From Escherichia coli (lineage in GTDB: Bacteria; Pseudomonadota; Gammaproteobacteria; Enterobacterales; Enterobacteriaceae), in assembly GCF_003018255.1 (NCBI RefSeq), contig NZ_CP027440.1: 64,000 nt of DNA; one strand, given 5' to 3'. This document shows positions 12,033-12,833 of this stretch, piece by piece. Under the pieces are notes generated by a model that worked only from the letters and a program-made list of their open reading frames with translations, did no database searches and was not told the origin of the DNA. The position numbers and the translations under genes were made by a program. The stretch's first letter is position 1. Each line of letters opens with the position of its first letter.

Positions 12033-12334
12033 GGGTGAGAATTTATATCGCCGGTCCGATGACGGGATATGAAAATTTCAACCGTGAGGCGTTTCACAAG
12101 GCGGAAGAAGCACTGAAACAGGAAGGGCATACCGTATTAAATCCCGCAGTACTTCCGGACGGGCTGACTCAGCCACATTACATGGATATTTGCATGGCAA
12201 TGATTCGTTGTGTGGATGCGGTTTATATGCTGGAAGGCTGGCAGCGGTCGGCAGGCGCTAAGGCAGAGCTGGCACTGGCGGAGAAACTGGGGCATGCAGT
12301 TATTTTCCAGGAGGCAACCAGTGAGCGAAATTAA
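12029..12334 (+). CDS. DUF4406 / nucleoside 2-deoxyribosyltransferase-like protein
   Basis: 101 aa. IYIAGPMTG ... FN ... LNP ... VDAVYMLEGWQRSAGAKAELALAEKLG matches the DUF4406 pattern as I recall it. Confidence 0.6.
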   Translation: MRVRIYIAGPMTGYENFNREAFHKAEEALKQEGHTVLNPAVLPDGLTQPHYMDICMAMIRCVDAVYMLEGWQRSAGAKAELALAEKLGHAVIFQEATSERN

Positions 12335-12481
12335 TTACCAGGAACTACGGCAGGTGAAAGAGAAAGCATAATCCAGAACTGAATAATTAAAATCAGCACT
12401 GTAAATAAAATTTAATCCTTAACCGGAGGGATTCCTGCACCCTCAGAACATCAGGAGACCGCCCGGCAGGGCGGTAGTGAA

Positions 12482-12664
12482 ATGCGAAAGTTCAAAATAA
12501 TTATTGAAACGGGAATCGCCGGTGGAGATTCCGAGGATGAATTCGAAGTGAATGATGATGCGACGCCTGATGAAATTCATAACGAAGCAAAAGAAATTTT
12601 CTTTAACTACTGCAATTACTCATATCACGAAATAAAAGACGAAGAGGAAGAACAAAATGGCTGA
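12482..12664 (+). CDS. hypothetical hyper-acidic 60-aa protein
   Basis: MRKFKIIIETGIAGGDSEDEFEVNDDATPDEIHNEAKEIFFNYCNYSYHEIKDEEEEQNG. About one third of residues are D or E. The next ORF overlaps its stop. Confidence 0.45.
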   Translation: MRKFKIIIETGIAGGDSEDEFEVNDDATPDEIHNEAKEIFFNYCNYSYHEIKDEEEEQNG

Positions 12665-12833
12665 TTTTGGTTCAACTAAATACAACGTCAGTTTTGAAGA
12701 ATGGCATGAACTGTTAATGGACTATGCAGAGTTACGTGGTGGAAGTGCCGCCGATGCTGAAGCATGGCGTGATGACTATGAAGCAGGAAAAACTCCGGTC
12801 GAAGCATATTGTGATGAGTGGGGCTATGAATGA
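12657..12833 (+). CDS. hypothetical acidic 58-aa protein
   Basis: Hand-translated, below the track cutoff: MADFGSTKYNVSFEEWHELLMDYAELRGGSAADAEAWRDDYEAGKTPVEAYCDEWGYE. It overlaps both neighbours, which suggests translational coupling. Confidence 0.4.
   Translation: MADFGSTKYNVSFEEWHELLMDYAELRGGSAADAEAWRDDYEAGKTPVEAYCDEWGYE

What the first reader, a model, noticed from the sequence alone, without database searches (positions are those of the whole stretch)
12320..12833. nin-region insertion scar carrying two hyper-acidic small proteins (candidate anti-defence DNA mimics)
The 3' end of the DUF4406 gene region contains GTGAGCGAAATTAATTACCAGGAA (12320-12343). This is a near-duplicate of the true 5' end of the 171-aa gene, ATGAGCGAGATTAATTATCAGGAA at 12830. 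The roughly 490 bp between the two copies therefore looks like a cassette inserted by recombination at that gene start. The cassette is AT-rich at its left end. It encodes two overlapping small ORFs (60 aa at 12482-12664 and 58 aa at 12657-12833) that are extremely rich in Asp and Glu. Small, very acidic early phage proteins are the hallmark of DNA-mimic anti-restriction or anti-defence factors such as Ocr or ArdA. That assignment here is inference only.
Basis: partly seen in the sequence, partly recalled or inferred. Interest (0 to 1): 0.55.

Follow-up and report, generated by a model that had tools for sequence, protein, structure and literature searches.

The report
Ea22 gene-start relic beside acidic gene pair
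The repeated 24 bases are two copies of the standard start of lambda-type "Ea22" genes, one of them a dead stub left by a deletion, and they flank a very common pair of small acidic prophage genes whose function is still unknown, so this is ordinary phage mosaicism rather than a new insertion element.

Summary
The 24-mers lie at 12321-12344 and 12830-12853 and match at 21 of 24 bases, with none expected by chance. The ORFs of 60 aa and 58 aa are strongly acidic (pI about 4.1).

The 24-mer is the conserved 5' end of ead/Ea22-like genes; lambda ea22 itself starts this way. The left copy is a 16-codon relic. Close relatives carry a full Ea22-like gene plus a 118-aa gene at that spot, about 0.7-0.9 kb more. 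No "empty site" exists in 5,426 complete E. coli genomes.

The right copy is the live start of the 171-aa gene. It also marks the point where the downstream gene type switches between relatives.

The two ORFs are real, translationally coupled genes (pN/pS about 0.11). ORF60 belongs to DUF7167 and ORF58 matches PHROG 519. Together they occur in 32% of complete E. coli genomes. Each family also occurs on its own in virulent phages.

The predicted folds are a beta-beta-alpha-beta unit with an acidic tail, and a three-helix bundle. Neither resembles Ocr, ArdA or any other solved DNA mimic. Anti-defence or host-takeover activity is plausible but untested.

A conserved leader with a hairpin between the Shine-Dalgarno sequence and the ATG is a side finding.

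The parts
12029..12334 (+). DUF4406 gene (101 aa). Its last four codons and its stop codon lie inside the left 24-mer.
   Evidence: Pfam PF14359, E 3.5e-37. PHROG 355, nucleoside 2-deoxyribosyltransferase-like.
12309..12349 (+). Conserved Ea22-type Shine-Dalgarno sequence plus first codons (the 'linker'). It contains the left 24-mer at 12321-12344.
   Evidence: This stretch alone matches the starts of ead/Ea22-like genes in HK106, Stx2c phages, RCS47, Salmonella VSe13 and others (H30-H39). Lambda ea22 starts GTGAGCGAAATTAAC.
12321..12371 (+). 16-codon relic ORF (VSEINYQELRQVKEKA*). It joins an Ea22-type 5' end to a short 3' end of the type seen at the end of a DUF4752 gene.
   Evidence: Relatives have full genes of 136-225 aa that begin the same way. 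Relic variants are 44, 50, 51 or 52 nt long, so the reading frame is not conserved. The 3' half matches the end of DUF4752 in L159.
12372..12481 (+). Conserved intergenic leader, AT-rich on the left and GC-rich on the right.
   Evidence: In the sampled phage and prophage loci the same element precedes at least 8 different gene families and follows at least 4 different upstream sequences. There is no Rfam match, no sigma-70 promoter-like site and no terminator-like site.
12453..12457 (+). AGGAG, the probable Shine-Dalgarno sequence of ORF60, 24 nt upstream of the ATG.
   Evidence: Read directly from the sequence. It is invariant in 22 hairpin variants.
12458..12475 (+). Hairpin ACCGCCC-GGCA-GGGCGGT (7 bp) between the Shine-Dalgarno sequence and the start codon.
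   Evidence: It appears in the MFE and centroid folds. 92% of cells are paired across 22 variants and one-sided changes mostly give U-G pairs on this strand, but covariation is not significant.
12482..12664 (+). ORF60: DUF7167 family protein, acidic, predicted beta-beta-alpha-beta fold with a disordered acidic tail.
   Evidence: Pfam PF23768, E 3.5e-13, 49.9 bits against a cut-off of 24.4. PHROG 1997, E 6e-29. pN/pS 0.11. AlphaFold2 pLDDT 78.7.
12657..12833 (+). ORF58: small acidic and aromatic protein, predicted three-helix bundle.
   Evidence: Matches the C-terminal part of PHROG 519, E 7e-23. No Pfam match. pN/pS 0.11. AlphaFold2 pLDDT 86.9. W16 and W37 are invariant and the acidic columns are conserved.
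12830..12853 (+). Right 24-mer: the live Ea22-type start of the next gene, and the point where relatives diverge.
   Evidence: In all 28 sampled loci the gene after ORF58 starts ATGAGCGAG(A/G)TT(A/G)A(T/C)TATCAGG. It then continues either as EGHETAGQ... or as the Ea22-like ALREAAEKA.... Phage matches end at window position 12851.
12830..13345 (+). 171-aa gene (PHROG 660). Only its first 7-8 codons are of the Ea22 type.
   Evidence: PHROG 660, E 5.6e-72. No Pfam or NCBIfam match to Ead_Ea22.

Best explanation
This is a mosaic junction in the hypervariable accessory region of a Rac-like lambdoid prophage. It lies between the replication genes and the hok/sok locus, DUF968, RusA and Q.

The 24-mer, together with the Shine-Dalgarno sequence before it, is the conserved 5' end of ead/Ea22-like genes.

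The left copy is a non-functional relic of such a gene. It survives because its first 14 nt also encode the C-terminus and stop codon of the DUF4406 gene. The body of the gene was lost by a deletion of about 0.7-0.9 kb relative to relatives that still carry an Ea22-like gene plus a 118-aa gene.

The right copy is the working start of the 171-aa gene.

Two short conserved stretches, the Ea22-type start and the intergenic leader at 12372-12481, act as shared boundaries. I infer that homologous recombination at these boundaries swaps the neighbouring genes.

Between the boundaries sits a conserved, translationally coupled two-gene module (DUF7167 plus ORF58). It is read as part of an early operon.

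I infer that the two proteins are small, folded, acidic binders that each inhibit or modulate a host or defence protein linked to DNA metabolism. I put this at about 35-40%. I think they are much less likely to be true B-DNA mimics of the Ocr or ArdA kind (about 10%).

What is shown: the anatomy, the homology relations, the distribution, the purifying selection and the predicted folds. What is inferred: the recombination mechanism, the timing of expression and any anti-defence role.
For: - Lambda ea22 and ArgO145 gp18 and gp13 start with the same sequence. The literature notes a shared amino-terminal segment and a mosaic build for Ea22 variants (PMC10834534).
- Relatives L004 and L006 read DUF4406, then full Ea22-like gene, then 118-aa gene, then the same leader, then DUF7167, ORF58 and the 171-aa gene. 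Homology to the window resumes at 12367.
- Relic lengths of 44-52 nt break the reading frame.
- The relic follows DUF4406, lygF or a TRM11 methyltransferase in different genomes.
- No empty site exists in 5,426 genomes.
- The downstream gene switches type just after the conserved TATCAGG near the end of the 24-mer.
- The leader precedes at least 8 gene families, among them a Q antiterminator and DUF4014.
- The gene pair is present in 1,749 of 5,426 E. coli genomes.
- The offset between the two starts is a fixed 175 nt in 77 of 78 loci, and pN/pS is 0.11 for both genes.
- Acidity is conserved across the families.
- Both families also occur in virulent phages. DUF7167 lies next to exonuclease genes, and the Oligella ORF58 homologue lies between SSB and DUF551 genes in a RecT/YqaJ locus.
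- No sigma-70 promoter-like site lies nearby, which fits read-through expression.
Against: - Which arrangement is ancestral is inferred from relic decay, not from a rooted tree.
- The exact parent of the relic's 3' half is uncertain. It could be the tail of a DUF4752-type gene or codons 12-16 of an Ea22 gene.
- There is no direct evidence of expression or of any binding partner.
- The two families occur separately in virulent phages, so a joint function is not required.
Confidence: 0.65

Rival explanations
1. A cassette of about 490 bp carrying the two ORFs was inserted by recombination at the start of the 171-aa gene, and this duplicated that gene's 5' end.
For: A direct 21/24 repeat flanks the interval. 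The interval has lower GC (24.5-37%) than the window.
Against: - The left copy continues as an Ea22 gene (ELRQ..), not as the 171-aa gene.
- Relatives carry extra genes at this spot, not an empty site.
- No single-piece empty-site match exists in 5,426 E. coli genomes.
- In ArgO145 the same pair is followed by the 24-mer but is preceded by a different upstream gene (a 70-aa ORF), with homology to the window starting only at 12451.
Confidence: 0.07
2. ORF60 and/or ORF58 are DNA-mimic anti-restriction proteins that work like Ocr or ArdA, blocking type I R-M, BREX or similar DNA-binding defences.
For: Net charge is -13 and -11 and pI about 4.1, and this is conserved across the families. The genes sit in early operons. 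A recent preprint argues that ea/recombination loci of lambdoid phages are anti-defence hotspots (10.64898/2026.07.10.737580).
Against: - No sequence similarity to any solved structure.
- The proteins are compact 58-60-aa domains, not elongated charge arrays.
- The invariant residues of ORF58 are aromatic (W16, W37, Y41, Y51, W55), which suggests a protein-protein interface.
Confidence: 0.1
3. ORF60 is a modulator of host RNA polymerase in the manner of T7 Gp2 or lambda Orf55. More generally, the pair tunes the lysis-lysogeny decision, as other exo-xis region proteins do.
Against: hhalign against Gp2 and against Orf55 is not significant (probability below 1%). Strand beta3 of ORF60 (NYSYHEIKD) lacks the two arginines that matter for Gp2 (and the sequence itself). 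Both families occur in strictly virulent phages, which argues against a role specific to lysogeny.
Confidence: 0.12
4. The 16-codon stub is a functional upstream mini-ORF. It would be translationally coupled to DUF4406 and would keep ribosomes on the mRNA ahead of the leader.
For: The GTG overlaps the end of DUF4406. The identical stub is present in 54 genomes.
Against: Variants of 44, 50 and 52 nt shift or truncate the frame; in L002 it is a 10-codon ORF. Peptide sequence and length are not conserved.
Confidence: 0.05

Closest known systems
Lambda Ea22 and the ead/Ea22-like family (IPR025153)
   Same: The 24-mer encodes the family's conserved amino-terminal segment (M/V-S-E/K-I-N/D-Y/S-Q). 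Lambda ea22 starts GTGAGCGAAATTAAC. The mosaic build of Ea22 variants, with a shared N-terminus, is described in PMC10834534.
   Different: The left copy is cut off after 16 codons. The 171-aa gene shares only codons 1-8 and has neither the coiled coil nor a Pfam match.
Conserved boundary or 'linker' sequences, and morons, of mosaic lambdoid phages (my own knowledge: the modular theory of Susskind and Botstein, and work of the Hendrix and Casjens groups)
   Same: Short conserved stretches at gene borders flank exchangeable accessory genes. Homology between relatives breaks exactly at these stretches.
   Different: No promoter or terminator of its own was detected, so this is not a classical moron. 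That recombination actually happens at these sites is inferred, not shown.
Ocr (T7 gp0.3) and ArdA, DNA-mimic anti-restriction proteins
   Same: Very acidic proteins encoded in an early phage operon.
   Different: There is no sequence or fold similarity. ORF60 and ORF58 are half the size or less (my own knowledge: about 116 aa for Ocr and about 166 aa for ArdA), with compact single-domain predictions.
T7 Gp2 and lambda Orf55 (small beta-beta-alpha-beta phage proteins)
   Different: No significant sequence relation. The key arginines of Gp2 are absent. The fold is generic, and RAM/ACT modules score equally well.
T7 Gp5.9 (my own knowledge: a 52-aa acidic RecBCD inhibitor encoded just upstream of the gene 6 exonuclease)
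   Same: A small acidic early protein. DUF7167 homologues sit directly beside exonuclease genes in Klebsiella phage VLCpiS11a and in Enterococcus phages.
   Different: Gp5.9 is helical (from memory), whereas ORF60 is predicted beta-beta-alpha-beta. No homology was shown. Adjacency was examined in only two loci; a third record lists an exonuclease under the match (H333) but was not opened.
Split ribosome-binding sites of T4 genes 38 and 25
   Same: A stable hairpin lies between the Shine-Dalgarno sequence and the AUG and would shorten the spacing from 24 nt to 6 nt. For T4 the figures are 22 to 5 and 27 to 11 (PMC3014915).
   Different: The arrangement is untested here. Covariation is not significant. 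The same leader serves many unrelated genes.

Membership tests
ead/Ea22-like family | Conserved amino-terminal segment (V/M-S-x-I-N/D-Y/S-Q-x-L-R-..A-E-x-A) | tested here: met
   The left relic reads VSEINYQELRQVKEKA. Compare lambda VSEINSQALREAAEQA and ArgO145 VSKIDYQELREKAEKA. The 171-aa gene matches only MSEINYQE.
ead/Ea22-like family | Central coiled-coil (Ead_Ea22 signature) and a C-terminal domain | tested here: not met
   The relic stops at codon 16. The 171-aa protein has no Ead_Ea22 match in Pfam or NCBIfam at E up to 1. Neither sequence is a member; each only carries the family's start.
DUF7167 (PF23768) | Profile match above Pfam's gathering score | tested here: met
   ORF60 scores 49.9 bits against a cut-off of 24.4, E 3.5e-13, covering the whole profile. 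RefSeq annotates the identical protein as a DUF7167 family protein.
DNA-mimic anti-restriction proteins (Ocr, ArdA) | High density of negative charge | tested here: met
   Charge per residue is -0.22 (ORF60) and -0.19 (ORF58), with family medians of -0.22 and -0.17.
DNA-mimic anti-restriction proteins (Ocr, ArdA) | Sequence or fold relationship to a known mimic | tested here: not met
DNA-mimic anti-restriction proteins (Ocr, ArdA) | Surface carboxylates arranged like B-DNA phosphates, and inhibition of type I R-M enzymes | not testable with these tools
Biochemistry and plating assays are needed.
T7 Gp2-like RNAP inhibitors | Beta-beta-alpha-beta fold | tested here: inconclusive
T7 Gp2-like RNAP inhibitors | Two arginines near beta3 that contact the beta' jaw, and detectable homology | tested here: not met
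   Strand beta3 of ORF60 reads NYSYHEIKD and has no arginine. hhalign probability is 0.4%. The requirement is taken from PMC8614690.
Split ribosome-binding site bridged by a hairpin (T4 gene 38/25 type) | Over-long spacing between the Shine-Dalgarno sequence and the AUG, with a stable stem-loop that restores a spacing of 5-11 nt | tested here: met
   AGGAG lies at 12453-12457 and the ATG at 12482, a spacing of 24 nt. The 18-nt hairpin at 12458-12475 leaves 6 nt.
Split ribosome-binding site bridged by a hairpin (T4 gene 38/25 type) | The structure is needed for translation (compensatory evidence) | tested here: inconclusive
   92% of cells are paired, but covariation is no better than in shuffles. 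Reporter mutagenesis is needed.
Known anti-phage defence systems (PADLOC) | Profile match | tested here: not met
   None of the five proteins encoded in 11718-13342 gave a match at E up to 1.

The most novel reading that the evidence does not exclude
DUF7167 (ORF60) and the ORF58 family would be two previously unrecognised families of small acidic phage inhibitors of host DNA-end-processing or immune proteins, such as RecBCD/AddAB or a nuclease-based defence. They would be shared by temperate lambdoid prophages, virulent Ackermannviridae and phAPEC8-like phages and, for DUF7167, Enterococcus Herelleviridae. They would spread through cassette exchange at the Ea22-start and leader boundaries.
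Probability: 0.25. Interest if true: 0.6.

Novelty: already known. Interest (0 to 1): 0.3.

Why it matters
The structural part is a clean textbook example of how lambdoid accessory regions are shuffled. A gene start of about 40 nt and a leader of about 110 nt recur as boundaries around interchangeable genes, and a decayed gene stub records a past deletion. This is not new biology.

The practical value lies in the two proteins. They are present in about a third of complete E. coli genomes, are under purifying selection, are conserved in virulent phages of distant hosts, and are entirely uncharacterised. That makes them reasonable and cheap candidates for anti-defence or host-takeover screens, although nothing here shows such an activity.

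The shared hairpin leader could be a reusable translation-control element that serves many accessory genes.

Tried and rejected
- Equivalence with lambda orf60a, orf61 and orf63, or with NinE and NinF, was suggested by the similar sizes. I rejected it. The lambda genes belong to DUF1317 and DUF1382, and the window ORFs match only DUF7167 or nothing in Pfam.
- Homology of ORF60 to T7 Gp2 or lambda Orf55 was tested with hhalign and is not significant.
- I first read the relic as an Ea22 start fused to the last codons of the 118-aa gene. I revised this after L159 showed that ...GAGAAAGCATAATCCA is the native 3' end of a DUF4752 gene in front of the same leader. The exact parent remains open.
- No longer parent allele of the relic was found. 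The 47-mer gave only the same 16-codon relic in 9 viral contigs.
- Covariation in the hairpin is no better than in shuffles.
- Rfam, the sigma-70 promoter scan and the terminator scan found nothing in the leader.
- Literature searches for DUF7167 and DUF1187 returned no papers.
- PADLOC and NCBIfam gave nothing for the two ORFs.
- BFVD returned only uncharacterised small phage proteins.
- The afdb50 library was not available.
- The P0139 fusion of DUF1187 with ORF58 is not convincing evidence of a functional link. The DUF1187 part is truncated (it matches only positions 1-39 of the 61-position profile) and the segment joining the two parts matches no family.
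Full report
**1. Observation**

The two 24-mers are present at 12321-12344 (GTGAGCGAAATTAATTACCAGGAA) and 12830-12853 (ATGAGCGAGATTAATTATCAGGAA). The copies match at 21 of 24 bases, or 26 of 32 when extended. They are the only matches in the 64-kb window with up to 3 mismatches, and 100 shuffles gave none.

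The DUF4406 gene (12029-12334; Pfam E 3.5e-37) ends inside the left copy. The interval between the copies is 485 bp. Its left end is AT-rich: GC is 24.5% at 12372-12420, against 52% for the window.

ORF60 (12482-12664) and ORF58 (12657-12833) overlap by 8 nt. ORF58 overlaps the 171-aa gene by ATGA. Both are very acidic, with net charges of -13 and -11 and pI values of 4.13 and 4.08.

**2. Setting**

The window is a Rac-like lambdoid prophage of E. coli and is 100% identical to several STEC chromosomes.

**3. What the repeated 24-mer is**

It is the conserved 5' end of ead/Ea22-like genes.
- Lambda ea22 starts GTGAGCGAAATTAACTCTCAGG (VSEINSQALREAAEQA).
- ArgO145 gp18 starts VSKIDYQELREKAEKA and gp13 starts MSEIDYQALREAAEKA.
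- The Rac-SA53 'ead' gene starts VSKINYQALRMAAENA and overlaps the end of its DUF4406 gene exactly as in the window.
- The stretch 12309-12349 alone (Shine-Dalgarno sequence plus first codons) matches Ea22-type starts in HK106, Stx2c phages, the P1-like RCS47 and Salmonella VSe13.

**4. The left copy is a relic, not a target duplication**

From the GTG at 12321 the frame runs for 16 codons (VSEINYQELRQVKEKA*). It follows the Ea22 consensus (Q-x-L-R) beyond the eight codons it shares with the 171-aa gene, which continues EGHETAGQ instead.

Close relatives have more DNA here. In strains MFDS1006657 and PEC41 the order is DUF4406, a complete Ea22-like gene (153 or 136 aa), a 118-aa zinc-ribbon-like protein, the same intergenic leader, DUF7167, ORF58 and the 171-aa gene. 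Homology to the window resumes at 12367. The window therefore lacks about 0.7 kb relative to these two strains, and about 0.9 kb relative to NCCP 13983, which carries a different gene set at that spot.

Variants of the relic behind lygF are 44, 50 or 52 nt long, so the reading frame is not conserved. The relic also follows a TRM11 methyltransferase gene in another genome.

Its 3' half (GTGAAAGAGAAAGCATAA) matches the native 3' end of a DUF4752 gene that sits in front of the same leader in strain E400634. It also resembles codons 12-16 of ArgO145 gp18. The exact parent remains open.

The exact relic occurs in 54 of 5,426 complete E. coli genomes. The first 14 nt are presumably retained because they encode the last residues and the stop codon of DUF4406. 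This last point is inference.

**5. Direct test of the insertion model**

I built the predicted empty site, joining the DUF4406 3' end, one 24-mer and the body of the 171-aa gene, and searched it against all complete E. coli genomes. Every match covering at least 80% of the query was split into two pieces spanning 806-841 bp. No single-piece match exists.

**6. The right copy and the module boundaries**

In all 28 sampled loci the gene after ORF58 starts ATGAGCGAG(A/G)TT(A/G)A(T/C)TATCAGG. After that it continues in one of two unrelated ways: EGHETAGQ... (PHROG 660; the 171-aa gene or truncated versions of it) or ALREAAEKA... (true Ea22-like genes). Matches in the phage database end at window position 12851.

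On the left, the leader at 12372-12481 is conserved. In 136 instances it follows at least four different upstream sequences and precedes at least eight gene families. These include DUF7167, the DUF4014 membrane protein, a Q antiterminator and several proteins of unknown function.

The two conserved stretches thus behave as shared boundaries around interchangeable genes. That homologous recombination at these boundaries causes the shuffling is inferred from where homology breaks. It has not been shown.

**7. The two ORFs are real genes**

- ORF60 is a DUF7167 protein (49.9 bits against a cut-off of 24.4) and matches PHROG 1997. ORF58 matches the C-terminal part of PHROG 519 and has no Pfam family.
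- Both genes are found together in 78 of the 82 sampled loci that have either one. The offset between their starts is a fixed 175 nt in 77 of those 78 loci. pN/pS is 0.11 for each gene.
- The pair occurs in 1,749 of 5,426 complete E. coli genomes, with up to 4 copies per genome.
- In the Stx phage ArgO145 the pair sits in the early-left region, after an Ea22-like gene, the 118-aa gene and a 70-aa ORF, and directly upstream of a second Ea22-like gene.
- No sigma-70 promoter-like site lies near the pair. Expression by read-through of the early operon is therefore likely, but this is inference.

**8. Wider distribution**

ORF58 relatives (about 50-60% identity) occur in virulent Ackermannviridae, including Cba120 orf183 and Vi01-like Salmonella and Klebsiella phages. 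They also occur in an Oligella prophage, between SSB and three DUF551 genes in a YqaJ/RecT locus.

DUF7167 relatives occur in phAPEC8-like myoviruses, in Enterococcus Herelleviridae and in a Klebsiella Guernseyvirinae phage. In the two loci I inspected they lie directly beside exonuclease genes.

The two families therefore act independently of each other and are not specific to lysogeny. The recurring neighbourhood is DNA recombination and nuclease genes.

**9. Structure and comparison with known inhibitors**

AlphaFold2 predicts ORF58 as a three-helix bundle (pLDDT 86.9). It has invariant aromatic residues (W16, W37, Y41, Y51, W55) interleaved with conserved acidic columns. ORF60 is predicted as beta-beta-alpha-beta with a disordered acidic tail (pLDDT 78.7).

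- ORF58 matches only generic helical sub-domains.
- Lambda Orf55 has been modelled with the same topology (PMC8614690).
- hhalign against Gp2 and Orf55 is not significant, and ORF60 lacks the key arginines of Gp2.

Sequence searches of the PDB, BFVD, NCBIfam and PADLOC gave nothing informative. No Ocr or ArdA appears in any of these lists.

**10. Mechanism and rivals**

*Most likely (confidence about 0.65 for the anatomy and history).* This is a mosaic junction with an Ea22-start relic left by a deletion. It flanks a conserved accessory gene pair that is read from the early operon.

*Function.* My best guess, at about 35-40%, is that each protein is a small acidic binder that inhibits or modulates a host or defence protein linked to DNA metabolism. 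This rests on conserved acidity, an aromatic interface, the early-operon position, presence in virulent phages and the nuclease or recombination neighbourhood. A recent preprint independently proposes that these recombination-linked loci are reservoirs of anti-immunity proteins.

*Other readings.* Strict DNA mimicry of the Ocr or ArdA type gets about 10%. A Gp2/Orf55-like effect on RNA polymerase, or on the lysis-lysogeny decision, gets about 12%. A functional mini-ORF in the stub gets about 5%.

**11. Side finding**

The leader places a 7-bp hairpin (12458-12475) between AGGAG (12453-12457) and the ATG at 12482. Folding would shorten the spacing from 24 nt to 6 nt, as in T4 genes 38 and 25 (PMC3014915; fold). 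The stem is 92% paired across 22 variants. One-sided changes mostly give U-G pairs on this strand. Covariation is not significant.

**12. Verdict**

The insertion-scar reading is wrong in its direction, because the event was a deletion at a shared gene start. The DNA-mimic label is unsupported.

The locus is ordinary lambdoid mosaicism built from catalogued but uncharacterised protein families. Interest is modest (0.3). It rests mainly on the two widespread acidic proteins as screening candidates and on the shared hairpin leader.

Noticed in passing
window 12372-12481 (hairpin 12458-12475): A conserved leader of about 110 nt places a GC-rich hairpin, with a GAAA loop in most copies, between AGGAG and the start codon. 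Across phage and prophage loci the same leader precedes at least 8 unrelated gene families, including a Q antiterminator and DUF4014. It may be a split ribosome-binding site like those of T4 genes 38 and 25, and it also serves as a mosaic boundary. Covariation is not significant.
   Followed up: partly
window 13467-13791: A hok/sok type I toxin-antitoxin locus lies just downstream. Rfam sok scores 113 bits at 13467-13641, and a Hok/Gef ORF lies at 13579-13791.
   Followed up: no
window 13800-13881: A weak match to the Hfq-binding sRNA IsrK (29.3 bits, below the gathering score of 50; E 0.0013) lies between hok and the DUF968 gene.
   Followed up: no
L160 (Cba120 orf183); L151 4001-4162 (Oligella prophage): The ORF58 family also occurs in strictly virulent Ackermannviridae. 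In an Oligella prophage it lies between SSB and three DUF551 genes in a YqaJ/RecT locus. The family is therefore neither lambdoid-specific nor lysogeny-specific.
   Followed up: partly
L161 2501-2671; L162 2501-2671: DUF7167 homologues in a Klebsiella Guernseyvirinae phage and in Enterococcus Herelleviridae overlap the adjacent 'exonuclease' gene. The arrangement recalls T7 gene 5.9 lying next to gene 6.
   Followed up: partly
L064; P0139: Two natural variants were seen. In one, a deletion leaves only 4 codons of ORF60 fused to ORF58 (MRKFRKNKMADF...). The other is a 127-aa protein in which a truncated DUF1187 is fused to an ORF58 domain. ORF58 can therefore stand without DUF7167 and can have a different upstream partner.
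   Followed up: no
L159 743-1018 (E. coli E400634): In some genomes the slot after DUF4406 holds a DUF4752 membrane-protein gene, followed by the same leader and a gene starting MTELTKE whose later part resembles the 171-aa protein (...PIAWRYRYVKKGV...). The body of the 171-aa gene therefore also exists without the Ea22-type start.
   Followed up: partly
window 12029-12334: The DUF4406 protein matches PHROG 355 (nucleoside 2-deoxyribosyltransferase, E 1.5e-47) and, weakly, Pfam Nuc_deoxyrib_tr. It may be a nucleotide-metabolism enzyme.
   Followed up: no
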